Shown: positions 2,670 through 36,007 of the stretch, piece after piece
How positions within the stretch are numbered: position 1 is the first letter of the stretch
Layout: the number at the start of each line of letters is the position of its first letter
Source of the DNA: Kiritimatiellia bacterium
GTDB lineage: Bacteria; Verrucomicrobiota; Kiritimatiellia; CAIVKH01
Assembly (NCBI GenBank): GCA_039807095.1
Contig: JBDHQM010000002.1
Location: 97,261 to 161,260, forward strand
Length of the DNA stretch: 64,000 nt
Direction of reading: 5' to 3'
Notes under the pieces: generated by a model
Seen by the model: only the letters and a program-made list of their open reading frames with translations
Databases searched by the model: none
What the model was told of the DNA's origin: nothing
Position numbers and translations under genes: made by a program

Positions 2670-2757
2670 TCAAAACTTCACTTCACTTATAGACCTCTAC
2701 CTCCAACACTCAATGTTTCCTTCTTTGTTGAACCAAACAGTTCCTTTTCCTTTGTTT
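2670..2757. repeat. 88-bp direct repeat (target-site duplication copy 2)
   Basis: Identical to 921..1008 and directly abuts the right terminal inverted repeat. Confidence 0.85.
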
Positions 2758-2769
2758 TTTTCCTTCTTT

Positions 2770-6201: not shown

Positions 6202-6284
6202 ATTCAAATCATCCTTCGCACGAGCTGGCACAGTGCGCAGCCACAAAACTGGTAGAGTGCGAGACGTTCATTGTCAAACTCTCC

Positions 6285-12278: not shown

Positions 12279-14556
12279 AAAGCACTCTATGAATCAGTGC
12301 GCCTAAATCGCCCGGGTAGTTGTCGCGGTGTCCCGCAGACTGCGGATCAAAGGGGGTTTCTGCATAAAAATGATAGATTCCGGTACGAGGCAGTTCTATT
12401 CCTGCAGGCGCCACAAGTTCGGCTGTCAATTCGGCGACGGACGGCGGCACATCCAGCCAGACCGCGCCCCCTTCGCCCCACGGCGGCACCACGCGCAGAC
12501 GTTGCACGGGCTTGCTTTGATTCGATGCGGCAACAACGGTCAATTTCACACGCCCCTTGCGCGGAACGGGCCCGACAATGCCGCTACCCTCACGGCTCCA
12601 CTGCCCCGGCACGCGCGTCCCATCGCTCAGCTTCAACGACTGTGTAGGCCCCCACGGCGGGCGCAACGCAGCAGGACCACCATCAAGCAGTTTTTCCTGC
12701 TGGAGTCTCGCGATCTCATTGTCAATTAGCGCGACGCGTGCAAATTGCAACACGCGCTCGTCCTTCTTAAGAACTGCAGGAAGCGCCCGCTTGCTGTGCA
12801 CACGCGATACAGGAATCCGCTCTGTCGAAATAGGTTCAAAGCGAATCCCTTCTTCCAAATCAGGCAGCGAACGCGATGCGACAAACCACACATCCTCTGT
12901 GCTCGCCACGCCGCGAAGCCAGCCGATAAGTTGTTCCCAGTGCTGCGGCTTTCCCTCGCTGCTCCAACCAATGGCGCGCGTCTGGTTATCCACCGCGAAA
13001 GGAAAGCTGTCGGGAAGATAATCGAAGAGAACTAAGCGCGACCCGATGTTCGCTTTTATTTCTTGTACGCGCTCCAGCGCGCCGATTTCTTGGCGAACAA
13101 AATATGGAGCAGGCCACCGCGCTACATTTGCGCTGCCAAGAACAAGTGCCAGGACGCCGCATCCCGCCGCAATCGCGCGGCGAGTTCCGATCCGGGCTTG
13201 AACCCAGCGCGCGGCAGGCAAGAGCAATGCGGGTAGTAACAATAAAACAAACGGCCCCATTCGTCGCTGGCTCCACATTGCCATTTGTTCTGCGCCCTTG
13301 AGATAGGAAAAGACGGGCAGCAACGCGACCGCAAATCCTGCCACCAGACGCGCACGGCCGGCAGTCCTCGAAAATACAAGCGGGATCGCGCACGCGATCG
13401 CAAGAACTGCAGCGGGCCATCGAACAGCGGACCAGAGATCTGTCAGTCCCGTCAACACACGCGGCGATTCTGCCCAGAAAAGCAAGGCCAAGGCGGTAGG
13501 CAATACGGCAACCAATAACCAGGCGGGCGCACGGGGATGCAAGCGATCCAACGCTCGTTGAAATGCGTCTGCCTTACGAAGCCGCCAGATCAGGAGCCAT
13601 AGCAACGCAATGCCAAATACAGCGGCAAATACATCCACGACTTGGTGCGCTTGGCTATATTTGAAATTCACGACCAGCGTGCGCCAGCGCAGCCTGCCAT
13701 ATGGCCCGCAGACATTTGCGGTCAACCAGAGCAGAAATGCAGGGCCGGTTGCGAACAGCGTCACCCCAGATAAAAGCCGCCGCGCTGAACCCCGGTCTAC
13801 TGCCAGCAATACGGCGAGCAACGGAAGCGAGACAACGATCAAAGCAGGATGGAATGCCGGCGCCAAACCGAGTGCGAGATATGCAGCCAGCGATACCGGC
13901 CGCCCCGCAGGCAGCGTCATCCAATGCAGGGCGACCAGACCCGCAAACACTGCGCCACACACTTCCGCATAAAAACCGCGAAACAGCATCGCAGGCAATG
14001 GGGTCGCCAGAAAGAGCGCGCCCGCAAGAAGCAGTCCGGCAACCCCGCCCTCACGACGACCGATTGCGAGCAGAGCCGCTGCAAACAACAGCCCCAAAAG
14101 AGGCGGGAATAGGTCCATGCCTCTCCACGGCAAGAGCTTCTGCAACCCCGCAGCGCCCAGCGGTAGCGTGGGGTAAAAGTACGGCTCTGTTGCCCCGGAT
14201 CCGTCTTGCATCACTCGAAAGGATCGGTCGCGCGTGTTGCGATCCTTGGTGTACGGAAGCAACGTGAGATCCTCCCGAAATTCAGAAGAAACATCGAGAA
14301 ACGTGTGGTCAACATCATTGAAGCCGCGACCATTGGCGAACGAGTACGCCATAAGCCGGTAGCCGGAGTGATCCAATGCGGTGAACGTATCGCCGTGAGG
14401 CCGCAACAAAAGCAACGCAGCCAATAACACCGCCACCCACACGCCAAGCGAACGCCACACACCGCGCACAGACTGAACGCACAGCCAGATGGCGCAGGAA
14501 ATCGAAATCAGGAAAATCGCTAGTGCAAGCCAAGACATCGAGAAGATAGTAGCCAT
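12262..14556 (-). CDS. large polytopic membrane protein with C-terminal periplasmic domain (GT-C/YfhO-like, putative glycosyltransferase)
   Basis: 764 aa. Multiple N-terminal TM helices and a roughly 300-aa soluble C-terminus. Confidence 0.4.
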   Translation of the reverse strand: MATIFSMSWLALAIFLISISCAIWLCVQSVRGVWRSLGVWVAVLLAALLLLRPHGDTFTALDHSGYRLMAYSFANGRGFNDVDHTFLDVSSEFREDLTLLPYTKDRNTRDRSFRVMQDGSGATEPYFYPTLPLGAAGLQKLLPWRGMDLFPPLLGLLFAAALLAIGRREGGVAGLLLAGALFLATPLPAMLFRGFYAEVCGAVFAGLVALHWMTLPAGRPVSLAAYLALGLAPAFHPALIVVSLPLLAVLLAVDRGSARRLLSGVTLFATGPAFLLWLTANVCGPYGRLRWRTLVVNFKYSQAHQVVDVFAAVFGIALLWLLIWRLRKADAFQRALDRLHPRAPAWLLVAVLPTALALLFWAESPRVLTGLTDLWSAVRWPAAVLAIACAIPLVFSRTAGRARLVAGFAVALLPVFSYLKGAEQMAMWSQRRMGPFVLLLLPALLLPAARWVQARIGTRRAIAAGCGVLALVLGSANVARWPAPYFVRQEIGALERVQEIKANIGSRLVLFDYLPDSFPFAVDNQTRAIGWSSEGKPQHWEQLIGWLRGVASTEDVWFVASRSLPDLEEGIRFEPISTERIPVSRVHSKRALPAVLKKDERVLQFARVALIDNEIARLQQEKLLDGGPAALRPPWGPTQSLKLSDGTRVPGQWSREGSGIVGPVPRKGRVKLTVVAASNQSKPVQRLRVVPPWGEGGAVWLDVPPSVAELTAELVAPAGIELPRTGIYHFYAETPFDPQSAGHRDNYPGDLGALIHRVLFVEME

Positions 14557-21775: not shown

Positions 21776-22624
21776 CTACGGTCGCTTCCACATATAAATG
21801 CTGCCACCGATAAGCGTGAGATTAGCCGCGCGCAGCCAAGGATTTCGCCGCAGTGCTCCCAGCACGCGGGCACCGATTCCCACGCGCGCGTCTCCGCGCG
21901 GCAAGCTCAACAAATCCATCGGTGAATAGAACTGCGCAAATCCTGCCTCACGCCCCAGCGAACACAAATCGGCAAAGCTATACCAGTGCACAGCGGGGCG
22001 TGGCGAATAGTCCGCCAGCGTCGGCTTATAGTGCAGATGTTGAAAGACGTAGGATTCTCTTACTGTGCGCGGGAACCAGTTGTAGAACGGCACGCGATAT
22101 TCCCCGTTGCGGCCCAGCGGTGAAAAACGGAGCCGGTTTGTCGTCCGGACAAACAAAACACCCCCCGGCGCCAGCACGCGAAACATTTCCGCCAGACTTT
22201 TACCGGGCGAGTCCACATGCTCCAACACACCCTCCATCAGCACAATTCGCTGCGAGTGATCCGGAAACGGCATTTCTTCCGCAACACCCCATTTCACACG
22301 CGATGCATCGCCCAAATACTCACGCGCCACTGCCAGGCTTTCCTCCACCGGTTCAATGCCCACGGCATCAAACCCCTTTTCAAGCAGCGTTTTCACTGTG
22401 AGCGGGCTCGGCCCGCACCCCACAACCGCCACCGTTTTGAGGCCAGCCGACAGATCAATAAGGCGACGACAGCACTCGAGAATATCGTTAAGCCCGCCAC
22501 GTTTGAGTGTTGTCGGCAAGCGTTCATCAAACCGCTTCCGTTTATGTTCAACGTAGCGAGCAGGCAAATCCGGAACACCGGATGAAAGAGGGCGATTGCG
22601 ATACAAGTCCGAATACTTCATCAC
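21776..22624 (-). CDS. class I SAM-dependent methyltransferase
   Basis: Motif I VVGCGPS. Length and later motifs fit the Methyltransf_11/12 type. Confidence 0.75.
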   Translation of the reverse strand: MMKYSDLYRNRPLSSGVPDLPARYVEHKRKRFDERLPTTLKRGGLNDILECCRRLIDLSAGLKTVAVVGCGPSPLTVKTLLEKGFDAVGIEPVEESLAVAREYLGDASRVKWGVAEEMPFPDHSQRIVLMEGVLEHVDSPGKSLAEMFRVLAPGGVLFVRTTNRLRFSPLGRNGEYRVPFYNWFPRTVRESYVFQHLHYKPTLADYSPRPAVHWYSFADLCSLGREAGFAQFYSPMDLLSLPRGDARVGIGARVLGALRRNPWLRAANLTLIGGSIYMWKRP

Positions 22625-23388
22625 CGGCTCCCTTTCGCGCGCGAATGTTGAGACACGATAAACTCCGCAATGCGCTGTGCTTCGGCATCAAGGTTTGAAA
22701 TGCCACTCGCGCGAAGCACAGGAACGCCTCGACCCTCCAGTGCATCAGCAAGTGCATTCAGTAGGGTCGCGCCCTCCTGAAAACGTGTCTTCATTTTATC
22801 TACGGGTTCACTCCCGAACAGGACAGGGGGCTGTCCGCGTCCTTGTACGCGCTCTACGCAGACATCGGCCGGAGTATCCACACAAATCAAGACATCCGGC
22901 GCGGGCAACAATGCGGCATAGCGCTCAGCGTCCGCAGGTTTGCCCAGCCCGCGATAACCGCGCAACGAGAAGAATCGGTGCGCAAACCCTTCGTCGAGCA
23001 CAACAATTCCATCCAGTTGTTTCGCCAATTGAAATTCAAAGCCTGAAGTCAACACCGCGCGAAATACCGGATCGCGCCAACTCGAATCCGTCCCGGATAC
23101 AGCGAGCCATTCGTGCAGCAACGCGACGAAATCCGCGTGCTCGACTGCAAAGCGATGCCAATCGTTCAGCCCGTGGGGCAGTCCGAGAAAATGCCGGCGC
23201 CAGGCAGGAATGAGCCGGCCACACAGATTGCCAATGACTCCGAAATCACGCGCACGCAAACCCCGCTCAACTACGTCCTCGCGATTCGCAGCCTCGATAC
23301 CGCGCGCGCGCAACGCCTTCACCACCACTCCGCAGAGCGTGCTCTTGCCCGCCGCAGGGACGCCGCAAAACTCTACGCGCATTTTCAC
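22621..23388 (-). CDS. P-loop NTPase, small-molecule kinase-like
   Basis: N-terminal Walker A motif (GVPAAGKST) and a Walker B-like VVLDEGF. 255 aa. Coupled by ATGA overlap to the methyltransferase. Confidence 0.5.
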   Translation of the reverse strand: MKMRVEFCGVPAAGKSTLCGVVVKALRARGIEAANREDVVERGLRARDFGVIGNLCGRLIPAWRRHFLGLPHGLNDWHRFAVEHADFVALLHEWLAVSGTDSSWRDPVFRAVLTSGFEFQLAKQLDGIVVLDEGFAHRFFSLRGYRGLGKPADAERYAALLPAPDVLICVDTPADVCVERVQGRGQPPVLFGSEPVDKMKTRFQEGATLLNALADALEGRGVPVLRASGISNLDAEAQRIAEFIVSQHSRAKGSR

Positions 23389-24749
23389 GAACCGGCCTCA
23401 TTCGGAATCAGCCAAAACGAGTGCTTCGCAAATGGGCGGATATCGTAATTCGCCCGAATATTCGAGACCTCCATCATCCGGCTCATCGTCTCGCGAATTT
23501 CTGCCTCGTCCAGCCCTGGAAATTTCTGGGAGCTGTAACCATCCGACACCAGTTGTGCCTCGCGCCGGGCATGAAGTCGTACCCGCCACATGCGCTTCGC
23601 CTCGGCCAACATCCGTTGTTTTGCAGAAAATTGACCGAGCGGTTTCCTGCCCGCCAATTCCACCAGCTCATTTGTAATCCGTTCCGCGGATGTCACCCCG
23701 GACAGACCGGCCATATAGCGCTTGGCAGTTGTCCACTGTTCGTCCGTCCACAAGACACCTCGCTCGCGAGCCGTCTTTCGCCCCTCCAGTGCAACGAACA
23801 GTTCATCCATCGAAAACACGTTCTCACTCAATGCATTCGGCAAGTGATTTTCATATCGCGGATAGCGCTTGGGGCGATACGCAATCGCCGGAACATCCAG
23901 AAGGAAAGATTCGACGGCGGTTGTGCAGTTAAAGTGAATCACCACTTCCGACGCCAGTATCCACTCGTGCACATTGCCGCTGCCATCCACATGCAAACGC
24001 GGATGCCTCTTGGCCAGCTCCAACCACGGTGCATGGCTTTCAGAGGGATGTGGGCGGACGACCACCGCATGCTTTGGATAACGCGCGAGAATCTCAGGCA
24101 CCATGGCGAGATACGCCTCGTGCATCTCGCGATGCATGGCGATCCACTTCTCCATGTAGCCGGGCTCGTTGTTGATCGGATATCGGGCCAATAATTTCTT
24201 CACTTCTTCCGGCGATTTGAAGTGATTGTGAAAAGCGAAGTTGGTGTTCACCAGCAGCATCGGACCGAACCGCGCGCGCAGTTGCTCGACGGGCTCCCGA
24301 TAAAAGGGCCGCAATTCCGGGCGCAAGAAATCGAAGCGAGGGTTGCCGCACAACGCAATCCGATCAACGTATTGTGGATATTCCTCACAGATCGCCTCGC
24401 GTTGCACCTCACCCCACGCGAAGAATCGCGTCACCTGATCCAGGGATTCGGGGACGATCCGCTGTTTGCGATACAGCCACGCATCAAAAAAAACCAATCC
24501 CTCTTCATCCCACGAAACTAATTCGTGTCCCATCGCCCGGCAGCGGCGAAACCAATCCGTTCGCGTCGCGGCAACGCTCTTGTCCAAATAGATCGCGGGT
24601 TCGACCAGATCCGCATAATCCCAGAGTCGCCCCTGCACGCCGAAAAGGACCGGATGCCCTCTGCTCAAAACATTGAGCGCGAGCCACAGCTTTCCGTGAA
24701 ACTCACGTGCCTTCGTCTCTACAGGTATAATGACAGCCGTCTTCTTCAC
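23385..24749 (-). CDS. TagF/KpsS-fold transferase ('surface carbohydrate biosynthesis protein' type), candidate CMP-ulosonate or polyol-phosphate transferase
   Basis: An RPHP motif and a downstream HFNCTTAVESF block resemble the CDP-glycerol glycerophosphotransferase / capsule-synthesis fold. Located beside neuB and neuA. Confidence 0.45.
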   Translation of the reverse strand: MKKTAVIIPVETKAREFHGKLWLALNVLSRGHPVLFGVQGRLWDYADLVEPAIYLDKSVAATRTDWFRRCRAMGHELVSWDEEGLVFFDAWLYRKQRIVPESLDQVTRFFAWGEVQREAICEEYPQYVDRIALCGNPRFDFLRPELRPFYREPVEQLRARFGPMLLVNTNFAFHNHFKSPEEVKKLLARYPINNEPGYMEKWIAMHREMHEAYLAMVPEILARYPKHAVVVRPHPSESHAPWLELAKRHPRLHVDGSGNVHEWILASEVVIHFNCTTAVESFLLDVPAIAYRPKRYPRYENHLPNALSENVFSMDELFVALEGRKTARERGVLWTDEQWTTAKRYMAGLSGVTSAERITNELVELAGRKPLGQFSAKQRMLAEAKRMWRVRLHARREAQLVSDGYSSQKFPGLDEAEIRETMSRMMEVSNIRANYDIRPFAKHSFWLIPNEAGS

Positions 24750-24758
24750 GCTGCATTC

Positions 24759-27011
24759 CTACAATCCAAATCGCTCCAGGCGCTCAAGGGCCACCCAAAA
24801 ACCCTCTCCACCATTTTTGTGGCCCTGCCAGATTTCCGGCATGAAGGAGGCGCCGGGGCACACCTCCTTCAACTGCGCGCAAAGCGCGGGAAAGTCCAGC
24901 TCGCCCTCGCCCACCTGCAATCCCTCTCCATCGGTTCCACGAGCATCCGCCATGTGCAGATGCGCAGCAAACGGCCCCACCTGATCCACAAACTCCTTGA
25001 ACGAAGTTTTGTAATGATTGCAGGCGAGTTTTGAGTGACTCACATCGAAGCAGAGGCGCAAGTTATTCGCGCGGCAGAACTCCACTGTGTCTTCTGCTTT
25101 GACAAAAAGATTGAGGTACATCTGCCCGCCGAAATACCAGGGGAATGGAGGCAGAGTCTGGCCAATAATCTCGACGCCGTCCGAATCTAACTCCCGCAAA
25201 CTGCGCGCCATAATTTCGTAGCGCTTGCTTACTTCGGGTTCCGACAAAAATCCGTCTCGCGAAAATCCGCCCAAACTAACAATAATGACCGGGCGCGTTG
25301 CCTTCTTAAAGTAGGGCTTCAGCTTTCGCGTCAAGTCCACCACGCGCTGGAGCTCGGCAATGGATCGCGCACGATGCGCTTCATCCGGATTTGAGAGATC
25401 GAGAAGGTGATCGCCATTGAACGTATCGGGACTGTGCACCTTGAAGTCCAGATCAAGAGGCTCGCCGAAGTAGCGCTCATACTCCTCATCCATGTCCTTA
25501 AAGCTCAGATGAAACTCGATGAAGTCGGGATTCGACTTCTTTCGTATTTCCTGGAAGTCGTGCCAACGCACCGTGACCCCCCACGGCCGACTAAAGCGAT
25601 AGTGCCGCGCCTGTGCGATGGGCTGCTCAATGTCACCGGCAAAAAAGAAATCGCCTTTCTTTAGATTGCGCGTGGCGCGCCGACCGATCAGCTCCGGTTT
25701 TCGATTTGGCTGCAACCCCCGCCCGGGGCTCCGAATTTCCACCGCGCTCTCATCAATCTCCTCGCCTTGTGCGATATCGCGTGCAGCAACAAGACTCTTG
25801 GCAAGGTTTGAGCGATTCATCAGTTCGCCCTGCGAAAGCGTGCGCGGATGGCCCGTTCCGATGGATTCTTCAACCTGCCGAATACCCTCAACCATTGCCG
25901 CAAATTCGTCCGGCAACAGACTCGCTTTATGGTCCGATCCTTCGAGGTTTCGGTCCAGCGTGATGTGCTTTTCGATAATCTTCGCGCCCTGCGTCACAGC
26001 CGAAATGGCAACGTGAATACCGCGCTCGTGACCGGAATATCCGACGAGACATCCGCCGATCGAGCGTAACCGGGACAGGTAGGCAAGGTTAATGTCTTTG
26101 AACGGCGCGGGGTACGTTGAATTGCAGTGCAACAGCGCATAGGCACTTCCATTCCGGCGCAGCACCTTCACGGTTTCCGCGATCTCATCCTCCGTGGACA
26201 TACCCGTCGAAAGAATCAACGGCTTATACGTTCGCGCAAGCTTCTCGATGAACGGATGATTCGTCAAATCCGCCGAAGCAACTTTGTATGCCTCCATCCC
26301 GTTGCGCTCCAGCACGTCCAGGCTCTCTTCTTCCCACGGAGTGCACAGCACGGCGAGGTCGAGAGAGCGGGCGTAATCAAACAGCGCAAGCATATCCGGG
26401 ACGGGTAGCTCGAACTTTTCCAACAGATTGAGCGTATATTGAGCGCCGAGGTCCTCCCCCGCCACACCGCCCGGCGTGTTGCGGTACAAATGCGACATTG
26501 AGCGCATCTGAAACTTCACCGCATCTACACGCGCATCGCGCGCCGCGCGGATCAGGCGACGCGCCATCTCCACGCTGCCGTTATGATTGATCCCGACCTC
26601 CGCGATGACGAAAACCGGCCCCTCGTCGCTGATTACGCGGTCACCGATTTTCAGCCCTTCAAACAATCCGCGACGGCGCACCACGCCAATCAAACGGCGG
26701 CGCGCGTCCAGCAGCGGCAGAAATTTTACGCGATCGGAAAAACGACGGCGAATTTCCTCCTGCGATTCGCCTTCCAGTGCCACCGCACAGGAGCGCACGA
26801 GAATCGTGCGAACCGGCTCGCGCAGATTCGCCACAGATTGCTTCATCAGCCAGCGTCGCACGTCGCCGTCGGTCAGAACACCCTCCAGCACACCGTACTC
26901 ATCCACGCCGATAACAAATCCCTTATGATTCGCGTCGAGGCGATGCAACGCCTCCGCAATCGGCGTATCCGCATTCACGCTCCACGGTCGGACATCGCGT
27001 TCGATGATCAT
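24759..27011 (-). CDS. neuB: tri-domain fusion: CBS pair + N-acylneuraminate/ulosonate-9-P synthase (NeuB, with SAF domain) + xylose-isomerase-like TIM-barrel sugar isomerase/epimerase
   Basis: NeuB core motif (VFVIAEVGINHNGS...VKFQ) and a SAF domain. The C-terminal roughly 260 aa has the TIM-barrel AP_endonuc_2-like pattern. The ORF as listed overlaps neuA by 43 bp, so the start was taken at MIIERD. Confidence 0.75.
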   Translation of the reverse strand: MIIERDVRPWSVNADTPIAEALHRLDANHKGFVIGVDEYGVLEGVLTDGDVRRWLMKQSVANLREPVRTILVRSCAVALEGESQEEIRRRFSDRVKFLPLLDARRRLIGVVRRRGLFEGLKIGDRVISDEGPVFVIAEVGINHNGSVEMARRLIRAARDARVDAVKFQMRSMSHLYRNTPGGVAGEDLGAQYTLNLLEKFELPVPDMLALFDYARSLDLAVLCTPWEEESLDVLERNGMEAYKVASADLTNHPFIEKLARTYKPLILSTGMSTEDEIAETVKVLRRNGSAYALLHCNSTYPAPFKDINLAYLSRLRSIGGCLVGYSGHERGIHVAISAVTQGAKIIEKHITLDRNLEGSDHKASLLPDEFAAMVEGIRQVEESIGTGHPRTLSQGELMNRSNLAKSLVAARDIAQGEEIDESAVEIRSPGRGLQPNRKPELIGRRATRNLKKGDFFFAGDIEQPIAQARHYRFSRPWGVTVRWHDFQEIRKKSNPDFIEFHLSFKDMDEEYERYFGEPLDLDFKVHSPDTFNGDHLLDLSNPDEAHRARSIAELQRVVDLTRKLKPYFKKATRPVIIVSLGGFSRDGFLSEPEVSKRYEIMARSLRELDSDGVEIIGQTLPPFPWYFGGQMYLNLFVKAEDTVEFCRANNLRLCFDVSHSKLACNHYKTSFKEFVDQVGPFAAHLHMADARGTDGEGLQVGEGELDFPALCAQLKEVCPGASFMPEIWQGHKNGGEGFWVALERLERFGL

Positions 27012-27724
27012 GTCGGATTCTCCCCGCGTTGAAGCAGAAAACTCGCCCACTCCAAATCCATTTCGGAATCAATATCTACTCCAGCCTCTTCAGTCATTTT
27101 GAACAAAACGATTTTGCCGCCCAACCGATTGTTTCCCTGCCGCAGCACCCACGGTTTGAAAATGTAAATGGATCCGTTCTCCCGATAGCGTGGCGCCATG
27201 TCCTGACGCCGCGGGCGTACACGCCAGTCGCGATTGACCGCGACCGCAGATCCATCCTGTTCTTCCCAAAGAAACAGATGAGAGGGCGAAACAGAGACAA
27301 CAGAATCGGCATTCGATTCCTCTAGCAAGGCAATAGCGGAATCAATATCCATTCCGGTTCGAATCGGACACGTTGCTTGTAGAAATACGACGAGGTCAGG
27401 GTCTCCGCCCCGGTCTGCCGCGATGCAATCCAACGCGTGCAACAGCGCAGCCTCGGATGTTGTCGAGTCTTCCGCCAAGACCGCCGGGCGATCAATAATC
27501 TGTGCGCCGGCATCTTGTGCTGCGCACTTAATCTCGGCGTCATCCGTGCTGACATACACACAAGAGACGCGTTGAGACTCAAGCGCATCGGCGACGCTCC
27601 ACGCAATCAGTGGGCGCCCCGCTACAGGACGCACATTTTTTCGCGGCACACCCTTGGATCCGCCGCGCGCCGGGATGATGGCGACGACGTTTTCGAATCG
27701 CTGACTGTGCTGGGAGGGGTTCAT
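27008..27724 (-). CDS. neuA: acylneuraminate (CMP-ulosonate) cytidylyltransferase
   Basis: IPARGGSKGVPRKN motif of the CTP_transf_3 family. Confidence 0.85.
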   Translation of the reverse strand: MNPSQHSQRFENVVAIIPARGGSKGVPRKNVRPVAGRPLIAWSVADALESQRVSCVYVSTDDAEIKCAAQDAGAQIIDRPAVLAEDSTTSEAALLHALDCIAADRGGDPDLVVFLQATCPIRTGMDIDSAIALLEESNADSVVSVSPSHLFLWEEQDGSAVAVNRDWRVRPRRQDMAPRYRENGSIYIFKPWVLRQGNNRLGGKIVLFKMTEEAGVDIDSEMDLEWASFLLQRGENPT

Positions 27725-29481
27725 GCTGAGGCTTCGGCGTTCTTCGCCTTTTTCTCCACCACAAAATCGCCAAGCACCAACACGTCAATCTCCGTACCCA
27801 GGAAGCACGCAACCGCCTGCTCCGGAGTTTGGACAATCGGCTGCCCCTTTACATTGAAGGATGTATTCAACAGCACAGGACAGCCGGTCTTCTTATGAAA
27901 CGCAGTGAGCAACTCGTAGAAGCGCTCGTTGTTTTCCCGACCGACCGACTGCACCCGGCACGAATCATCCACATGGACCGTTGCCGGAATCGCCGACTTC
28001 TTCGCCGGCTGCACTTTGCACGCGATCAGCATGTGCGGACTTTCCTGCCCGATGTCGAAGTATTCATGCACATATTCCTTCAAACACGCCGGAGCAAGCG
28101 GCCGGAAATACTCGCGGAACTTCACGTTGTCGTTAATGTGATCGCGCATCGCCTCCGGATACGGCTTGGCAAGAATACTGCGATTGCCGAGCGCGCGCGG
28201 ACCGAATTCTGCTCCGCCCTGATACCAGCCAATCACCTTCCCCGCAGCCAGTTTGTCAGCAACATCGGCGTAAAGATTTGGCGGACGCGTGTATGCCACG
28301 CCGGCACTCTTGAGCGCCTGCTCCATTTCGGCCGACGTGTAGTCGCCGTGCAGATAATAGTTGTGGTTTTTGACCGGCCGGTAATTCGGATCATGTGCGC
28401 GCTGCGCAAGGAAACACGCGCCGATCGCCAGTCCGGCGTCACCCGATGCAGGCTGCACGAAGATTTCGTCAAATATATGCTCGCGCTCAATCCGCCCGTT
28501 CATCGAGCAGTTCAGCGCAACGCCGCCGCTCAAGCACAGATACTTGATTCCCGTATCTTTGCGCGCATTGCGCAGCACACCCAACACAACCTCCTCAAGG
28601 CGCCGCTGCAAGGCAGCGGCAATATCTTTATGGTGCTGATTTAGCGTTGCGACATCGTACTTCCGGCGCGGGCCGAACACTTCGACAAAGCGGTCCGACA
28701 CCCATTTATTCCGCTCATAATAATACGCCATCCATTCCGGATTGATGGTGATAGTGTATTTCCCGTCATACTGAATGATATCTTCAAAAAACGAATAGTA
28801 GCTCCGCGTCTGCCCCGGCACGATATGATCGGAATCACCAAAGCACGCCAGCGCCATGATGATGCCCTCATGGTGCACATTCTTCCACCCGAGATAGCAG
28901 GTGATCGCGGCATACACCAATCCGAGTGAATGCGGGTAATCGTAGCGGTCATACAAGACCTCAATCGCGCCTGCCCGCCCGACGCCCAGTTTCATCGTCT
29001 TGTTGTCGCCGATGCCGTCAATGCTCAGCAACACAGCATCCTGAAATCCGCTCGGATAATACGAACTCGCCAGATGTGTGAGGTGGTGATCGAAATAGGA
29101 AATCTTTCCCGTAAAACCGGTCTTCTCGCGGATGATCTCTTCCACATTGAACATCTCTTTGATGCGCTCAAACTCCTGAATCATCATGCCCACGCGTTTG
29201 GGGTCGCGAATTGCCGCCTCGAGATACGTTCTGCGAATGCACGCCTCCGGATCCCCGCCGAATGCAATTTCGTCCACATCGGCCATCGTCAGCTTTGCCT
29301 TCCGTAGGCAATCCTGAATTGCATCTGTCGGAAACAGCCGGCTGTGCTTATCCAGTGAATAGCGCTCCTGCTCGCACGCGGCGATCAGCTTGCCATCCAC
29401 CATAATCGCGGCTGCTGTATCGTGTGCCAGATACTTGATCCCCAAAATCACTTTTTTCATTCGATTCATCCTTTCCAACAT
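27721..29481 (-). CDS. carbamoyltransferase (NodU/CmcH family); start probably at 29460
   Basis: FDHHLTHL metal-binding motif and a YrdC/Kae1-like C-terminal region. Confidence 0.8.
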   Translation of the reverse strand: MLERMNRMKKVILGIKYLAHDTAAAIMVDGKLIAACEQERYSLDKHSRLFPTDAIQDCLRKAKLTMADVDEIAFGGDPEACIRRTYLEAAIRDPKRVGMMIQEFERIKEMFNVEEIIREKTGFTGKISYFDHHLTHLASSYYPSGFQDAVLLSIDGIGDNKTMKLGVGRAGAIEVLYDRYDYPHSLGLVYAAITCYLGWKNVHHEGIIMALACFGDSDHIVPGQTRSYYSFFEDIIQYDGKYTITINPEWMAYYYERNKWVSDRFVEVFGPRRKYDVATLNQHHKDIAAALQRRLEEVVLGVLRNARKDTGIKYLCLSGGVALNCSMNGRIEREHIFDEIFVQPASGDAGLAIGACFLAQRAHDPNYRPVKNHNYYLHGDYTSAEMEQALKSAGVAYTRPPNLYADVADKLAAGKVIGWYQGGAEFGPRALGNRSILAKPYPEAMRDHINDNVKFREYFRPLAPACLKEYVHEYFDIGQESPHMLIACKVQPAKKSAIPATVHVDDSCRVQSVGRENNERFYELLTAFHKKTGCPVLLNTSFNVKGQPIVQTPEQAVACFLGTEIDVLVLGDFVVEKKAKNAEASA

Positions 29482-33109: not shown

Positions 33110-33885
33110 AAATCGGGCTCATATTTTCCCCACGCATGGCACCCGAACGGCAAACGCCCGTTCATGCGAGCCACATAGCTCGATGGCTCCAGTTCCAGCG
33201 CAAAATACATCGCTTCCTCTTCGCGAGGAATCCGGAAACCGGGAGGCGCAAACATTGTCCAGAACATATCTTCATTTCCCGGCCACTGCGCAGCGAACTT
33301 CCCGTGCGTCATCAGGGTCTGGCGAAAACCCGGTATACGGCGCAGCGAGAAACCGCCATTGCCCACGCGAAAATCACGGCGATACCAGAGTCGCGCCAAT
33401 CCCGGCCACTGCACCAACCGTGGCCGCGCCTCGCGCACATGGCGATGGCGCAATAGGTCCCGACTGCCCCACGGCGCGCCGATATAGTCATACCCACGCG
33501 CGCACCAGTCCTCCAATTCATCGCGGAAAACAAAGGCATCCAACTGATAAATCAGCAAGTATTCCCACCCGCGAAATCGGGCATAAAAATCATCGGAAAG
33601 CAGCAGGCGGCTGTATGCGTCAACGCTCACAAATGCCGATGCTGGGAAATACTCGGTTTTCACTCCCTCAAACTCCGGAGGCAGGATCAAACCTTCCGGG
33701 CAAATGATGCGGATGTCGTGGCGGCCCAAAATACGGCGGCACTGTGCAAGCGACAGGCGCTCTTCCGCGCTGAGCGTCTCCTTGAAGCAGGGCACTAATA
33801 CGACACAACTCATTTTGTCATCCACACGTTCCCGCACACCCGGCGCATCACAGCCATACGTCACGCCGAGTTGACGATCTCCCAT
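33076..33885 (-). CDS. DUF5672-like glycan-cluster protein (putative GT-A-like transferase)
   Basis: YQLDAFVFRD DxD-type block. Typical companion of GT2 genes. Confidence 0.45.
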   Translation of the reverse strand: MGDRQLGVTYGCDAPGVRERVDDKMSCVVLVPCFKETLSAEERLSLAQCRRILGRHDIRIICPEGLILPPEFEGVKTEYFPASAFVSVDAYSRLLLSDDFYARFRGWEYLLIYQLDAFVFRDELEDWCARGYDYIGAPWGSRDLLRHRHVREARPRLVQWPGLARLWYRRDFRVGNGGFSLRRIPGFRQTLMTHGKFAAQWPGNEDMFWTMFAPPGFRIPREEEAMYFALELEPSSYVARMNGRLPFGCHAWGKYEPDFWAAHIPGGSS

Positions 33886-35174
33886 TGATGCGACACCAGA
33901 ACCCCCGAATTATCGCTGATCTTTTGCAGTTTGCCCGTCCCGTAAAAATCTCCGTCAACGACGAATAACTCCAGGCCGTCAATCAATTCATCCGCAACGG
34001 TTTTGCCAACCTTGCAGAACAGATGCACCACATAGCGTCCCGGAAGCAGCGGCAACTTTGGAATTGTGAGGCGAATCGTGCCGCGCCGCCCCAAGCGAAG
34101 GGTCTCCGGATGCGAGACGCGCGAAAAACACAGGAATTTTTCCTGACGGGTCTCACCCGATGCCACTCGAAAATAAATGAAGCACGGTTGATCGTTCATC
34201 ACGGTGCGCTCGTAATCCAACTCAACCGTAATGGTTTCGCCAGACTGCGCCGCGTTGATGACGACGTTTCGCTCGTTACGAATTCGATAACCAGTAAAAC
34301 GCACACTGCCGTCCCCGCTCCGGTCGGTTCGTTCGTTGATGGGCAGATGCGACGCCTTCGGTAAATGCGTTTTCAGATACGCTTCTGTAATTTCCTGCAC
34401 ATTGCCGATCATCTGGCACTCACCGCCGCGCAAGAGAACAGCCCGGGAACAGAGCGCCTGAATCGCGGCCATGTTGTGACTGACAAATAAAATCGTACGC
34501 CCCTCTTTTGAGACGTCTTGCATACGGCCAAGGCATTTCGCCTGAAACTCCGCATCACCTACCGCGAGCACCTCGTCCACGATCAATATCTCTGGCTCCA
34601 AATGCGCCGCCACCGCAAAGGCAAGTCGAACGTACATTCCGCTCGAATAACGCTTCACCGGTGTATCTATGAACGCGCTCAACTCGGCGAAGGCAACAAT
34701 CTCGTCCAGTTTGCGGGCGACTTCTCGCTCCTTCATGCCGAGAATCGTGCCGTTCATAAATACATTTTCTCGCCCGGTCAGCTCCGGATGGAAACCCGTA
34801 CCCACCTCAAGCAACGAACCAATTCGACCGCGAATTCGCACCTCGCCAGAGGTGGGTTCTGTGATGCGACTCAGAATCTTCAGGAGCGTGGATTTGCCCG
34901 CGCCATTGCGGCCGATGATGCCGACAACTTCTCCCGGCTGCACATCGAATGAAACATCGCGCAAGGCCCAGAAGTCCTGGTTTCCAGCCTGTTCTGCCTC
35001 GACCCGGCGACGCTCAGTCGCGCCGTATCCGATTTTTTCAAACGCCTTCCGCGGATCGCGGCCGCGCAGTTTGTGCCACCAATACTTGGTTTCATCAATT
35101 AGCGTGTGCCGCCCGATCGTCCCCAATCGGTATCGCTTCGAAAGATTGTGAATGGAAATTGCCGCCTCGCTCAT
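33861..35174 (-). CDS. wzt: ABC transporter ATP-binding protein Wzt with C-terminal glycan-binding domain
   Basis: Walker A GRNGAGKST, signature YSSGM, Walker B ILIVDE. A C-terminal extension of about 170 aa as in Wzt/TagH-type exporters. Confidence 0.85.
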   Translation of the reverse strand: MSEAAISIHNLSKRYRLGTIGRHTLIDETKYWWHKLRGRDPRKAFEKIGYGATERRRVEAEQAGNQDFWALRDVSFDVQPGEVVGIIGRNGAGKSTLLKILSRITEPTSGEVRIRGRIGSLLEVGTGFHPELTGRENVFMNGTILGMKEREVARKLDEIVAFAELSAFIDTPVKRYSSGMYVRLAFAVAAHLEPEILIVDEVLAVGDAEFQAKCLGRMQDVSKEGRTILFVSHNMAAIQALCSRAVLLRGGECQMIGNVQEITEAYLKTHLPKASHLPINERTDRSGDGSVRFTGYRIRNERNVVINAAQSGETITVELDYERTVMNDQPCFIYFRVASGETRQEKFLCFSRVSHPETLRLGRRGTIRLTIPKLPLLPGRYVVHLFCKVGKTVADELIDGLELFVVDGDFYGTGKLQKISDNSGVLVSHQWEIVNSA

Positions 35175-36007
35175 ATCGTATCCACAAACGTGCGTTGAAC
35201 TTTATTGAAGAGGAAAAGGCCGGACACCAAAACAAGCGCAGTGACAAACCAGCTCAAGCCCAGCCCCCAAAGCTCCGGGCTCCCCCGCCCCGTGAGTGCA
35301 TAGCGGCTGAACTCCACAACCGCGGTCATCGGATTAAGCCACAGCACAAACTTCAGGATCGGTTTCACAACCAGTTTGGCGGGATACACAATTGGCGTGC
35401 CATACATCCACAACTGCACCAGAAACGGCAGAGCGAAACGCAGGTCGCGATACTTGATCGTCGCCGCCGAGACCCACAATCCGAATCCGAGTCCGAGCAG
35501 TCCCGTCTGTAGAATCAACAGAGGCAGGAAGAAAACCCACGCATTCGGCTCCATCGCGCTCCCGCGGAAATAATACCAAAAGTAGAAGCCGAGAAACAAA
35601 AGCGAGTTCAGTGCAAGATGGGCAAACTGCACAAACACGCCGGACAACGGCATGATCAGGCGCGGGAAATACACCTTTGTTAGGATATTTGTGTTGGACA
35701 CCAGCGATGTCGCGCCTTGATTCAACACGCCCTGAAAATAATTCCAAAACAGCGTTCCGCTCATGTAGAAAATGAACTGCGGAATTCCATCTGTCGAAAT
35801 CTTTGCCACCGTTCCGAAGATCACCGTAAAGACGATCGTCGTAAGCAGCGGCTGAATCACAAACCAAAGCGGCCCGATGATTGTCTGGCGATACACCGCG
35901 GTCAGCTCGCGCTTGACCCACAGGGTCAAAAGATCACGGTATTCCCACAGCTCGCGCACCGGAATCCGCCACCAGGGACTGTTTGCTCGAATAACGGTTG
36001 TCTGCAT
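35171..36007 (-). CDS. wzm: ABC-2 type polysaccharide exporter permease Wzm
   Basis: Six-TM ABC-2 permease, ATGA-coupled to wzt. Confidence 0.85.
   Translation of the reverse strand: MQTTVIRANSPWWRIPVRELWEYRDLLTLWVKRELTAVYRQTIIGPLWFVIQPLLTTIVFTVIFGTVAKISTDGIPQFIFYMSGTLFWNYFQGVLNQGATSLVSNTNILTKVYFPRLIMPLSGVFVQFAHLALNSLLFLGFYFWYYFRGSAMEPNAWVFFLPLLILQTGLLGLGFGLWVSAATIKYRDLRFALPFLVQLWMYGTPIVYPAKLVVKPILKFVLWLNPMTAVVEFSRYALTGRGSPELWGLGLSWFVTALVLVSGLFLFNKVQRTFVDTI

What the first reader, a model, noticed from the sequence alone, without database searches (positions are those of the whole stretch)
24759..27011. Tri-domain CBS-NeuB-TIM-barrel isomerase fusion; possible self-contained KDN-like ulosonic acid pathway
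One 750-aa protein combines three parts. The first is an N-terminal CBS pair. The second is a complete NeuB-type (PEP-condensing) ulosonate synthase with its SAF domain. The third is a C-terminal xylose-isomerase-like TIM-barrel (sugar-phosphate isomerase/epimerase fold) of about 260 aa. The locus has neuA (27008..27724) but lacks genes that other routes would need. There is no UDP-GlcNAc 2-epimerase (NeuC). There is none of the dehydratase/aminotransferase/N-acetyltransferase set required for pseudaminic or legionaminic acid. The product is therefore more likely a Neu5Ac- or KDN-type acid, or a novel one. The fused isomerase domain could generate the hexose(-phosphate) substrate in cis (for example Fru-6-P to Man-6-P for a KDN-9-P synthase). 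I do not recall this domain architecture as a characterised enzyme.
Basis: partly seen in the sequence, partly recalled or inferred. Interest (0 to 1): 0.8.

Follow-up and report, generated by a model that had tools for sequence, protein, structure and literature searches.

The report
Fused sialic-acid-type (Kdn-like) synthase gene
This is a real 750-residue enzyme that joins a regulatory CBS pair, a sialic-acid-type synthase and an uncharacterised sugar-isomerase-like barrel. It belongs to a very widespread, already annotated bacterial family that, with one neighbouring gene, probably makes an activated Kdn-type sugar for cell-surface polysaccharides.

Summary
One uninterrupted gene on the minus strand (24759..27011, 750 aa) encodes a CBS pair, NeuB, SAF and a xylose-isomerase-like TIM barrel. 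It is translationally coupled to a CMP-sugar cytidylyltransferase. The window holds no NeuC and no pse/leg gene set.

The architecture is not rare. More than 350 full-length relatives (about 55-60% identical) occur across at least ten phyla. A paper on Serratia marcescens capsules describes a NeuB with the same extra COG1082 domain. There, only neuA plus neuB are needed to make KDN, with minor Neu5Ac.

The only universally conserved neighbour is the cytidylyltransferase. The TIM family is almost exclusively tied to NeuB, either fused or as the next gene.

In this window the module sits in a Wzm/Wzt polysaccharide locus, next to a predicted nonulosonate transferase and tailoring enzymes.

The product is most likely CMP-Kdn or a close relative. 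What the TIM domain does is still unknown. One relative carries a separate KdsC/BT1713-type phosphatase, which supports that guess. A phosphatase role is the main rival.

Verdict: a new member of a known but biochemically uncharacterised family, of moderate interest.

The parts
24759..27011 (-). Whole gene: CBS pair, NeuB, SAF and xylose-isomerase-like TIM barrel. 750 aa; the stop codon is at 24759-24761.
   Evidence: ORF and translation. Pfam. 100% identical database protein P0001, and full-length homologues of 747-753 aa.
26661..26990 (-). CBS pair (Bateman module), residues about 8-117. Probably regulatory. It is absent from many family members.
   Evidence: Pfam CBS at residues 8-56. KpsF/GutQ and IMPDH CBS regions matched over residues 9-116. 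PDB CBS-pair hits 4o9k and MJ0100. CBS is missing in L009, L012, L013, L015, L016 and L018 and in 66 of 105 fused representative clusters.
25851..26615 (-). NeuB catalytic barrel (PEP-condensing ulosonate synthase), residues about 133-387.
   Evidence: Pfam NeuB 1.3e-79. TIGR03569 scores 321 bits and TIGR03586 251 bits, both below their equivalog cut-offs. In the alignment to N. meningitidis NeuB, the positions I recall as its Mn ligands (His215/His236) align with H328/H349, and those I recall as its PEP ligands align with K166, K243, S246, S268 and S326. These residues are invariant in the family.
25629..25799 (-). SAF (antifreeze-like) domain of the synthase, residues 405-461.
   Evidence: Pfam SAF 3.5e-11. 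In the alignment to NmeNeuB, the position of Arg314 (essential in that enzyme, from memory) is Ser428 here, with Arg427 just before it.
24762..25583 (-). C-terminal xylose-isomerase-like TIM barrel (AP_endonuc_2), residues about 477-750. It belongs to a family-specific, NeuB-linked subfamily. It carries a conserved His/Asp/Glu cluster: E499 H501 D506 H526 D656 H659 H684 H686 D689 E696 E726 H731.
27008..27724 (-). CMP-ulosonate cytidylyltransferase (neuA-like). Its stop overlaps the start of the fusion gene.
   Evidence: Pfam CTP_transf_3 2.4e-21. The best NCBIfam match is PseF at 117 bits, below its cut-off. Homologues lie next to the fusion in 17 of 19 loci and in every Pfam-annotated locus.
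23385..24749 (-). Predicted nonulosonate glycosyltransferase. It starts 9 nt downstream of the fusion gene.
   Evidence: NCBIfam TIGR04396 'surface carbohydrate biosynthesis protein', 346 bits (cut-off 125). A BFO_1060-family glycosyltransferase domain also matches at 84 bits, below its cut-off of 200. No Pfam or PDB sequence match. Conserved downstream of the fusion in L003-L006.
22621..23388 (-). P-loop nucleoside/nucleotide-kinase-like protein. Role unknown. It is conserved with the module in Kiritimatiellia.
   Evidence: Weak AAA_33/AAA_18/thymidylate-kinase matches. Homologues in L003-L005. A cytidylate kinase follows the split NeuB/TIM pair in L091.
27721..29481 (-). NodU/CmcH-type O-carbamoyltransferase directly upstream of neuA. 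A likely tailoring enzyme.
   Evidence: Pfam Carbam_trans_N/C. NodU matches at 197 bits, below its cut-off.
33861..36007 (-). Wzm (35171-36007) and Wzt with a C-terminal carbohydrate-binding domain (33861-35174). This is the ABC exporter of the polysaccharide locus that holds the module.
   Evidence: Pfam ABC2_membrane, ABC_tran and Wzt_C. The same Wzm/Wzt_C context is seen in L001, L003-L005, L016 and L083.

Best explanation
The gene encodes a member of a large, highly conserved family of multidomain ulosonic-acid synthases. Together with the overlapping upstream cytidylyltransferase it forms a portable two-gene cassette. That cassette makes a CMP-activated nonulosonic acid without any nucleotide-sugar (NeuC, Pse or Leg) pathway.

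Shown here:
- The NeuB-SAF part keeps the positions that align with the Mn and PEP ligands of N. meningitidis NeuB.
- The TIM barrel is an obligate partner of this NeuB clade, either fused or encoded as the next gene.
- The cytidylyltransferase is the only universal neighbour.
- The genes next to the cassette are CMP-sugar-type transferases and O-tailoring enzymes.

Inferred:
- The product is Kdn or a close relative. NeuB condenses PEP with a manno-configured hexose 6-phosphate to give Kdn-9-P.
- A YrbI/KdsC-type or promiscuous phosphatase, encoded elsewhere, removes the phosphate.
- The NeuA-like enzyme makes CMP-Kdn.
- The downstream TIGR04396 protein transfers it onto an O-antigen-like polymer exported by Wzm/Wzt. 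That polymer is then carbamoylated, methylated or acylated.

For the TIM domain I commit, with low confidence, to a substrate-supply role. I propose a metal-dependent isomerisation or 2-epimerisation of an abundant hexose phosphate (Fru-6-P or Glc-6-P) to Man-6-P, handed on in cis to NeuB. The optional CBS pair probably gives nucleotide or CMP-sugar feedback control.
For: Architecture and catalytic residues.

Family size and conservation:
- More than 350 full-length relatives at about 55-60% identity, from Kiritimatiellia to Cyanobacteria, CPR, Actinomycetota and Proteobacteria.
- Cytidylyltransferase adjacency in 17 of 19 loci and in every Pfam-annotated locus.

NeuB-TIM coupling:
- 105 of the 150 best TIM-profile hits carry NeuB in the same chain.
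- The stand-alone copies I checked lie directly after a separate NeuB gene.

Neighbouring transferases are of CMP-sugar types:
- Maf/MptE-like beside flagellar genes.
- PolyST PF07388.
- KpsC/S Capsule_synth.
- TIGR04396/BFO_1060-like in this window.

Kdn identity:
- S. marcescens neuA plus a NeuB with a COG1082 domain gives KDN and needs no other sialic-acid gene (PMC9000132).
- In Ensifer the cassette follows ManC (PMI/GMP).
- The neighbouring tailoring enzymes are mostly O-directed: O-methyl, pyruvyl, carbamoyl, sulfo.

Phosphorylated route:
- The Kdn synthases discussed in PMC6200933 (B. thetaiotaomicron, P. parvum, human) use Man-6-P.
- The Paceibacterota locus L012 carries a YrbI/KdsC/BT1713-family phosphatase between neuA and NeuB-TIM.
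- That phosphatase also argues that the TIM domain does something other than dephosphorylation.
Against: - No enzyme of this family has been assayed in anything I could read.
- I could not obtain the S. marcescens sequence, so its orthology rests on the shared architecture and on the specificity of the TIM subfamily.
- A dedicated phosphatase is present in only 1 of 30 loci.
A textbook isomerase mechanism is therefore not supported.
- The site has six invariant His, which resembles a hydrolytic multi-metal centre at least as much.
- Ensifer already has a PMI (ManC) next door, which would make a Fru-6-P/Man-6-P isomerase redundant there.
- NCBIfam scores fall below both the NeuB and the PseI equivalog cut-offs, so the substrate cannot be read from the sequence.
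Confidence: 0.45

Rival explanations
1. The TIM barrel is the missing phosphatase. NeuB makes Kdn-9-P from Man-6-P, which ordinary PMI supplies. The C-terminal metal-dependent barrel hydrolyses the 9-phosphate. The two-gene cassette would then encode all three specialised steps of the B. thetaiotaomicron-type Kdn pathway, with non-orthologous replacement of the HAD phosphatase.
For: - 29 of the 30 fusion loci have no YrbI/KdsC-type HAD phosphatase within about 10 kb. None appears in the Pfam-annotated loci either; L085's only HAD-type gene, fused to a CTP_transf_like domain about 5 kb downstream, looks GmhB-like to me (from memory).
- The Kdn routes discussed in PMC6200933 need a phosphatase.
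- The domain order follows the reaction order.
- There are six invariant His plus several carboxylates.
- From memory only: the top hit MJ1311 conserves the Endo IV trinuclear-zinc ligands; Endo IV has 3'-phosphatase activity; CbiR is a phosphodiesterase. A weak CbiR match (E 0.0034) appears.
- A mobile cassette would be expected to carry the specialised step (the phosphatase) rather than a housekeeping one (PMI).
Against: - L012 encodes a separate KdsC/BT1713-family phosphatase right inside the cassette, which would be redundant.
- I know of no AP_endonuc_2 member that acts as a sugar-phosphate monoesterase (my knowledge).
Confidence: 0.22
2. The product is not Kdn. The cassette would make Neu5Ac, an 8-carbon Kdo-like acid or a novel ulosonic acid from another aldose(-phosphate) that the TIM domain generates, for example a pentose or heptose phosphate. 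The link to Serratia would be a coincidence of architecture.
For: - Scores are below both the NeuB and the PseI equivalog cut-offs.
- The cytidylyltransferase is closest to PseF and then KdsB, both below cut-off.
- The CBS pair most resembles that of the arabinose-5-phosphate isomerases KpsF/GutQ.
- KpsC/S-type (Kdo) transferases are neighbours in two loci.
- Some loci add GFO/SDR oxidoreductases and aminotransferases that could remodel the sugar.
- Orthology with the Serratia enzyme was not checked at sequence level.
Against: - The only experimental datum for this architecture is KDN.
- ManC is adjacent in Ensifer.
- The TIM subfamily is narrow and almost always tied to NeuB, so a second independent NeuB-COG1082 fusion family is unlikely.
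- The very high conservation across phyla suggests one common product.
Confidence: 0.15
3. The TIM domain acts after condensation, as a tailoring epimerase or dehydratase on the ulosonate. Alternatively it is non-catalytic and serves only as a scaffold or oligomerisation module.
For: - Distant stand-alone AP_endonuc_2 genes sit with GFO oxidoreductases and NeuB in Roseburia loci.
Against: - About 25 invariant polar residues in the barrel argue for catalysis.
- The Serratia product was unmodified KDN, identified against standards.
- A 3-deoxy-2-keto acid has no stereocentre next to the carbonyl to epimerise.
- The minimal cassette contains no oxidoreductase.
Confidence: 0.1

Closest known systems
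Serratia marcescens KL1/KL2 capsule NeuB (NeuB with an added COG1082 'sugar phosphate isomerase/epimerase' domain) plus NeuA (PMC9000132)
   Same: Same reported architecture: a NeuB family domain plus an extra COG1082 / xylose-isomerase-like domain. The same two-gene neuA-neuB unit sits in a surface-polysaccharide locus, and no neuC was found in that paper's text.
   Different: Sequence-level orthology was not verified here. The paper does not mention a CBS pair (from what I read). The Serratia genes sit in a capsule locus that includes wzi, whereas here the locus uses a Wzm/Wzt ABC exporter. The role of the extra domain was not studied there either.
Kdn pathway of Bacteroides thetaiotaomicron (BT1713 phosphatase, BT1714 Kdn-9-P synthase, plus a CMP-Kdn synthetase; the three proteins are Q8A710-Q8A712), also in Prymnesium parvum and human NANS/NANP
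   Same: A NeuB-family PEP condensation followed by CMP activation, with no nucleotide-sugar precursor route. One relative (L012) even has the BT1713/KdsC-type phosphatase between the two genes.
   Different: Those synthases are about 350 aa with no TIM barrel and no CBS pair. They are accompanied by a dedicated HAD phosphatase, which 29 of the 30 loci here lack. Overall identity to NANS is only 30%.
Bacterial Neu5Ac, legionaminic and pseudaminic acid synthases (NeuB/SiaC, LegI, PseI, SpsE)
   Same: Same NeuB barrel plus SAF fold. The positions that align with the N. meningitidis NeuB Mn and PEP ligands are conserved. PDB E-values are 1e-45 to 1e-53.
   Different: The scores are below the equivalog cut-offs. 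The Arg314 position of NmeNeuB is Ser here. There is no NeuC, PseB-H or LegB-G partner. Two extra domains are present.
Xylose-isomerase-like TIM barrels: MJ1311, TM0416, D-tagatose/psicose 3-epimerases, endonuclease IV
   Different: Sequence similarity is marginal (best E 1e-6, over about 75 residues only). The central Glu appears to be replaced by Gly-Gln (low confidence). A conserved family-specific loop PPFPWxFGGQxxxN follows that strand. None of these relatives is fused to, or encoded next to, NeuB.

Membership tests
NeuB-COG1082 (AP_endonuc_2) fusion family ('N-acetylneuraminate synthase family protein', about 750 aa) | NeuB, SAF and AP_endonuc_2 domains in one polypeptide, full-length alignable to family members | tested here: met
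   Pfam. 100% coverage at 55-87% identity to more than 120 proteins with the same precomputed Pfam set, plus two further sets.
NeuB-COG1082 (AP_endonuc_2) fusion family | Adjacent CTP_transf_3 cytidylyltransferase and no NeuC | tested here: met
   The window scan found no Epimerase_2 gene.
NeuB-COG1082 (AP_endonuc_2) fusion family | Product is Kdn, as shown genetically and chemically for S. marcescens | not testable with these tools
   Only literature on a presumed orthologue. The Serratia sequence could not be retrieved.
N-acetylneuraminate synthase NeuB/NnaB (TIGR03569 equivalog) | HMM score at or above the curated cut-off (399.65 bits) | tested here: not met
   321.2 bits.
N-acetylneuraminate synthase NeuB/NnaB | Catalytic Mn and PEP ligands of NmeNeuB conserved | tested here: met
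   In the alignment, H328/H349 align with NmeNeuB His215/His236, and K166, Q168, K243, S246, S268, S326 and D360 with its other active-site positions (ligand roles recalled from memory). H328, H349, K166, Q168, K243, S246, S268, S326 and D360 are invariant in the family. The Arg314 position is Ser428.
N-acetylneuraminate synthase NeuB/NnaB | Partner UDP-GlcNAc 2-epimerase (NeuC) supplying ManNAc | tested here: not met
   No Epimerase_2 among the 41 ORFs scanned in the window. It is also absent from nearly all related loci; only L085 has an Epimerase_2 gene, about 6 kb away.
Pseudaminic acid synthase PseI (TIGR03586 equivalog) | HMM score at or above the cut-off (340.25 bits), with pseB/C/H/G partners | tested here: not met
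   251.3 bits. No pse genes in the window.
Kdn-9-P / Neu5Ac-9-P synthase type (BT1714, NANS) | Uses Man-6-P or ManNAc-6-P and is accompanied by a YrbI/HAD phosphatase | tested here: inconclusive
   Substrate use is not testable here. A phosphatase neighbour occurs in L012 only, 1 of 30 loci.
Xylose-isomerase-like TIM barrel superfamily (Pfam AP_endonuc_2) | Pfam score above the gathering threshold, and the fold | tested here: met
Ketose 3-epimerase / xylose isomerase catalytic type | Glu-Asp-His-Glu metal tetrad, including the central Glu that acts as base or bridging ligand | tested here: inconclusive
   Asp656, His686 and Glu726 are present. No coordinates were available for inspection.
Endonuclease IV trinuclear-zinc phosphoesterases | Nine conserved Zn ligands | tested here: not met
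   By the low-confidence alignment and by motif reading, about 5 of 9 are retained (H526, D656, H659, H686, E726). The His109 and Glu145 equivalents are absent, and Asp229/His231 are replaced by the shifted D694/E696.
CBS pair (Bateman module) | Two tandem CBS repeats | tested here: met
   The first repeat is above the Pfam cut-off. The pair is covered by KpsF/GutQ and IMPDH models over residues 9-116 and by PDB CBS-pair chains.

The most novel reading that the evidence does not exclude
The NeuB-linked TIM barrel would be a new catalytic type within the xylose-isomerase-like superfamily: a hexose-6-phosphate isomerase or 2-epimerase, or alternatively a new sugar-phosphate phosphatase. Its active site would differ from every characterised member. 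It would turn Kdn biosynthesis into a portable two-gene cassette present in more than ten bacterial phyla, including CPR bacteria. Kdn-type sialic acids on O-antigens, capsules and flagellins would then be far more widespread than currently recognised.
Probability: 0.4. Interest if true: 0.65.

Novelty: new member of a known kind. Interest (0 to 1): 0.45.

Why it matters
Kdn is usually treated as a rare bacterial sugar. The route characterised in B. thetaiotaomicron uses three separate enzymes (PMC6200933).

This family points to a compact cassette, horizontally spread, that is present in cyanobacteria, plant and human pathogens (Xanthomonas, Serratia), rhizobia, CPR bacteria and PVC bacteria. 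It feeds O-antigen-like polymers, capsules and flagellin glycosylation.

The cassette contains a highly conserved catalytic domain that nobody appears to have assayed. Defining that domain would do three things:
- complete a pathway relevant to immune evasion by S. marcescens;
- allow Kdn-bearing glycans to be predicted from genomes;
- possibly add a new reaction type to the xylose-isomerase-like superfamily.

For this particular window the finding is an ordinary member of that family, not a one-off invention.

Tried and rejected
1. Plus-strand reading of the given coordinates. Rejected, because it is full of stops.
2. Frameshift or separate genes in this window. Rejected: it is one frame here and in hundreds of homologues. 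Genuine split NeuB + TIM gene pairs do exist in other taxa.
3. A neuC/pse/leg gene set elsewhere in the window. Not found among the 41 large ORFs scanned between 1016 and 58710. Regions outside the 64-kb window cannot be checked.
4. Literature searches for the fusion under 'TIM barrel', 'CBS' or 'xylose isomerase-like'. They found nothing. A phylogenetic survey of NulO synthases does not mention the fusion. The final broad search returned only noise.
5. Retrieving the S. marcescens or Streptomyces coelicolor (SCO4881) proteins through homologue searches seeded with Ensifer and Microthrixaceae members. Neither organism appeared in the top 120, so orthology is unverified.
6. Sequence or profile search of the TIM domain against the PDB. 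Only a partial match of about 75 residues to MJ1311 came back, so active-site mapping stayed low-confidence.
7. The Foldseek afdb50 library was unavailable. The MJ1311 structure paper is not held.
8. A triple fusion CTP_transf_3-NeuB-TIM in L015. The ORF is open across all parts, but only 54 residues match the cytidylyltransferase profile. Left as 'possible'.
9. A weak HAD-like hit upstream of the fusion in L006. It turned out to be a SAM methyltransferase.
10. The neighbourhood census by greedy ORF calling is noisy in high-GC loci. I used it only qualitatively.


Full report
**Observation**

The reported interval holds a single gene, but it lies on the minus strand. The plus-strand translation is broken by many stops. 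The reverse strand is open from a GTG at 27050 or an ATG at 27011 down to the stop at 24759. The ATG at 27011 overlaps the stop codon of the upstream gene (ATGA) and is preceded by a GGAG-like motif. Homologues are 747-753 aa and align over 100% of the 750-aa product.

Pfam finds four domains above their curated thresholds:
- CBS, residues 8-56.
- NeuB, residues 153-387 (1.3e-79).
- SAF, residues 405-461.
- AP_endonuc_2 'xylose isomerase-like TIM barrel', residues 496-731 (2.1e-17).

**Surroundings in the window**

The gene sits in a long minus-strand operon-like array running from about 36.5 kb to 12.3 kb. In order, the array contains:
- MarR.
- Wzm.
- Wzt with a Wzt_C carbohydrate-binding domain.
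- DUF5672.
- Three GT2 glycosyltransferases.
- DUF6625.
- A NodU/CmcH-type carbamoyltransferase.
- A CTP_transf_3 cytidylyltransferase.
- The fusion gene.
- A 454-aa protein that Pfam does not recognise. NCBIfam calls it TIGR04396 'surface carbohydrate biosynthesis protein' (346 bits, cut-off 125), with a BFO_1060-family glycosyltransferase domain below cut-off.
- A P-loop kinase-like protein.
- A SAM methyltransferase.
- Three GT4 glycosyltransferases.
- An MBOAT acyltransferase.
- Further unknown proteins.

I scanned 41 large ORFs between 1016 and 58710. None is a NeuC-type epimerase, and there is no dehydratase/DegT/acetyltransferase set of the pseudaminic or legionaminic routes. The class I/II aminotransferase at 5176-6246 is a different family. 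The locus is thus an ABC-transporter-dependent, O-antigen-like polysaccharide cluster. Within it lies a three-gene core: a cytidylyltransferase, the fusion synthase and a putative nonulosonate transferase.

**How common is the architecture?**

Three database searches were seeded with the window protein, an Ensifer member and a Microthrixaceae member. Each returned 120 full-length proteins of about 750 aa with the same Pfam set, typically 55-60% identical to the query.

Named sources include:
- Kiritimatiellae (87% identity; probably the source lineage).
- Verrucomicrobia, Lentisphaerae, Chloroflexi, KSB3.
- Peregrinibacteria and Paceibacterota.
- Chitinophagaceae, Saprospiraceae, Salinibacteraceae.
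- Acidimicrobiales and Microthrixaceae.
- Acidobacteriota and Desulfobacula.
- Many cultured cyanobacteria: Geminocystis, Stanieria PCC 7437, Rippkaea PCC 8801, Crocosphaera watsonii, Aphanothece sacrum, Synechococcus KORDI-100.
- Proteobacteria: Parvularcula, Comamonas aquatica, Candidatus Symbiobacter, Xanthomonas campestris, Methylobacillus, Azonexus, Magnetospirillum.
- A 1.9-Mb Ensifer canadensis plasmid.

The proteins are routinely annotated 'N-acetylneuraminate synthase family protein', 'N-acylneuraminate-9-phosphate synthase' or 'sialic acid synthase SpsE/sugar phosphate isomerase/epimerase'. The CBS pair is optional. It is missing in six of the genome loci and in 66 of 105 fused representative clusters.

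A profile of the TIM domain, scored against 1.84 billion cluster representatives, hits only 1048 clusters at E<=1e-3 and 275 at E<=1e-30. Of the best 150, 105 carry NeuB in the same chain. Most of the remainder are short fragments. I looked up two stand-alone copies of about 280 aa, and both lie immediately downstream of a separate NeuB(+SAF) gene. The barrel is therefore a narrow subfamily whose occurrence is essentially tied to this NeuB clade, whether fused or split.

**Conserved context**

Across 19 loci, the only window gene with a homologue next to the fusion almost everywhere is the cytidylyltransferase (17 of 19). It is also present in every locus for which precomputed Pfam calls were available and in Ensifer.

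The other neighbours vary but follow a theme. The transferases belong to families that use CMP-ulosonates:
- MptE-like/Maf proteins. In Xanthomonas and Comamonas these lie beside fliE/F/G or motA/B, which makes those loci flagellin-glycosylation islands. A census of ten further loci also found three flagellin-domain ORFs.
- An alpha-2,8-polysialyltransferase-family protein in a Trichormus-related locus.
- KpsC/S-type Capsule_synth proteins in a Peribacteraceae locus and in Synechococcus.

The tailoring enzymes are mainly O-directed: TylF and other methyltransferases, pyruvyl transferases, sulfotransferases, and in this window a carbamoyltransferase and an MBOAT. Wzm/Wzt_C exporters recur.

The precursor genes expected for Neu5Ac, Pse or Leg are generally absent.

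**What is the product?**

A full-text search found one directly relevant paper. In Serratia marcescens KL1/KL2 capsule loci, neuA and neuB are the only sialic-acid genes. [quoted passage not shown] The capsule contains KDN, with Neu5Ac at about 1:20. Deleting neuB abolishes the sialic acid and the capsule, and complementation restores them (PMC9000132). The function of the extra domain was not addressed.

I could not obtain that sequence, so orthology is inferred from three things: the identical architecture, the identical two-gene unit, and the narrowness of the TIM subfamily.

Two further observations fit a mannose-derived sugar:
- In Ensifer the cassette directly follows a bifunctional ManC (mannose-6-P isomerase / GDP-mannose pyrophosphorylase).
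- The neighbouring tailoring enzymes modify hydroxyl groups.

NCBIfam places the synthase below both the NeuB (321 versus 399.65 bits) and the PseI (251 versus 340.25 bits) equivalog thresholds. The cytidylyltransferase falls below the PseF and KdsB thresholds. Neither enzyme can therefore be filed under a characterised specificity.

In the alignment, H328 and H349 align with His215 and His236 of N. meningitidis NeuB, which I recall as its Mn ligands. K166, K243, S246, S268 and S326 align with positions I recall as its PEP ligands. The position of Arg314, which I recall as essential and in contact with the N-acetyl group, is Ser428.

**Phosphorylated or free sugar?**

The Kdn synthases discussed in PMC6200933 (B. 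thetaiotaomicron, Prymnesium parvum, human NANS) condense PEP with Man-6-P, and the pathway then needs a phosphatase. The Prymnesium enzyme does not accept free mannose.

Two observations here point the same way:
- The segment around the second metal ligand shares the motifs GYSGHExG and GSDHxASL with human NANS.
- In the Paceibacterota locus L012, a 187-aa gene lies between the cytidylyltransferase and the NeuB-TIM gene. It is a YrbI/KdsC-family HAD phosphatase. Its best PDB matches are 3ewi (labelled N-acylneuraminate cytidylyltransferase; the HAD-like C-terminal domain of mouse CMP-Neu5Ac synthetase, as I recall), 3e81/3e8m (which I recall as B. thetaiotaomicron BT1713) and several KdsC chains. 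The DVDGV and GDD motifs are intact.

L012 thus reproduces the B. thetaiotaomicron trio with the TIM domain added. No such phosphatase is detectable within about 10 kb in the other 29 fusion loci.

**What does the TIM barrel do?**

This remains open.

*Family invariants:*
- E499, H501, S503 and D506 after strand 2.
- H526 after strand 3.
- G581-G582.
- E614.
- A conserved, family-specific loop PPFPWxFGGQxxxN after strand 5, which has low model confidence.
- D656-x-x-H659.
- H684-x-H686-x-x-D689.
- E696 (invariant in the 30-sequence alignment), with D694 invariant among the 17 close relatives.
- E726, W728 and H731.

*The active site.* Only the D-x-x-H ... H-x-H-x-x-D ... GEG stretch aligns significantly with a solved protein, MJ1311. 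Together they put Gly617-Gln618 where endonuclease IV, xylose isomerase and the ketose 3-epimerases have their central Glu. That Glu is a bridging ligand or catalytic base in those enzymes. The site therefore looks like neither a textbook isomerase nor a textbook Endo IV centre. It is unusually rich in histidine.

The strict NeuB-TIM coupling suggests adjacent steps. A 2-epimerase acting on both Glc-6-P and GlcNAc-6-P would neatly explain KDN plus minor Neu5Ac in Serratia.

*Argument for a phosphatase.* The module otherwise lacks that specialised step in 29 of 30 loci, including monoderm lineages. A mobile cassette would more plausibly carry a dedicated phosphatase than a PMI. Ensifer already has a PMI next door. 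The metal site is His-rich.

I rank the possibilities as follows:
- Substrate supply first, about 0.4-0.45 given a Kdn-type pathway.
- Phosphatase second, about 0.2-0.25.
- A different product, about 0.15.
- A downstream or non-catalytic role, about 0.1.

The CBS pair most resembles the CBS pair of KpsF/GutQ arabinose-5-phosphate isomerases. It is dispensable in much of the family, so I read it as a regulatory add-on. I have no test of its ligand.

**Comparison with known systems and novelty**

The protein works like a NeuB-family synthase and is a bona fide member of the NeuB-COG1082 fusion family. It fails the equivalog tests for Neu5Ac synthase and PseI. It cannot be assigned to the BT1714/NANS type without biochemistry.

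The architecture is already in the databases in very large numbers, and its link to KDN has been published for Serratia. The window's gene is therefore a new member of a known kind.

Three things remain unexplored:
- The catalytic role of the TIM subfamily.
- The breadth of the cassette across phyla.
- Its use for O-antigen-like polymers, capsules and flagellins.

**Limits**

- No enzyme data exist in the library I could search.
- The Serratia and Streptomyces sequences were not retrievable.
- Model coordinates could not be inspected.
The KdsC result was independently confirmed against the PDB.
- Statements about MJ1311's zinc ligands, and about the HP-type motifs of sialyl and Kdo transferases, rest on my memory. 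They are leads, not tests.

Noticed in passing
window 21776-23388 (-), with Wzt_C at 33861-35174: A P-loop kinase-like gene lies directly beside a SAM methyltransferase, in a locus whose Wzt carries a carbohydrate-binding C-terminal domain. This recalls chain-terminating methyl-phosphate caps of ABC-exported O-antigens (E. coli O9a WbdD, from memory). The cap could equally be the ulosonic acid itself.
   Followed up: partly
L012 9331-9891: In a Paceibacterota genome, a YrbI/KdsC/BT1713-family HAD phosphatase is inserted between the cytidylyltransferase and the NeuB-TIM gene. It is the only such case among 30 loci.
   Followed up: yes
L015 8978-11881: In an Acidobacteriota genome, the reading frame is open from a cytidylyltransferase-like N-terminus through NeuB, SAF and TIM (968 codons). 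Only 54 residues match CTP_transf_3. This may be a triple fusion, a degraded gene or an assembly frameshift.
   Followed up: partly
L087 (Xanthomonas campestris) and L089 (Comamonas aquatica): The same cassette sits in flagellar regions (fliE/F/G, motA/B) with 640-656-aa Maf/MptE-like proteins, several methyltransferases and a pyruvyl transferase. This suggests flagellin glycosylation with a modified Kdn-type sugar.
   Followed up: no
L088 (Synechococcus sp. KORDI-100): The cassette is flanked by two KpsC/S-like Capsule_synth genes, three consecutive DUF6716 genes and three sulfotransferases. This may be a sulfated ulosonate-containing capsule in a marine picocyanobacterium.
   Followed up: no
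L090, L091, L092: Split versions exist: a 344-349-aa NeuB(+SAF) gene followed immediately by a 276-281-aa TIM gene of the same subfamily. In L091 a cytidylate kinase comes next.
   Followed up: partly
L019 8508-9374 and L023 14077-14946 (Roseburia): Distant stand-alone AP_endonuc_2 genes (E about 1e-5 to the TIM profile) lie in NeuB/CTP_transf_3 loci, together with GFO_IDH_MocA oxidoreductases, a CBS-DegT aminotransferase and a B12-radical SAM enzyme. This looks like a different, more elaborate nonulosonate pathway that also uses a TIM barrel.
   Followed up: partly
window 1016-3810 (-): Two transposase genes (DDE_Tnp_1 and IS110 family) lie about 8 kb beyond the far end of the polysaccharide locus. 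This fits a mobile or variable region.
   Followed up: no
window 8791-14556 (-): Three large ORFs (603, 571 and 764 aa) at the distal end of the cluster have no significant family match, apart from a weak DIE2/ALG10 hit. They may be membrane glycosyltransferases or polymer-modifying proteins.
   Followed up: no
L086 9756-11183 (Ensifer canadensis plasmid pT173e): A bifunctional ManC (GDP-mannose pyrophosphorylase / mannose-6-P isomerase) lies directly upstream of the neuA-fusion pair, on a 1.9-Mb rhizobial replicon that PLSDB lists with almost no annotation.
   Followed up: partly
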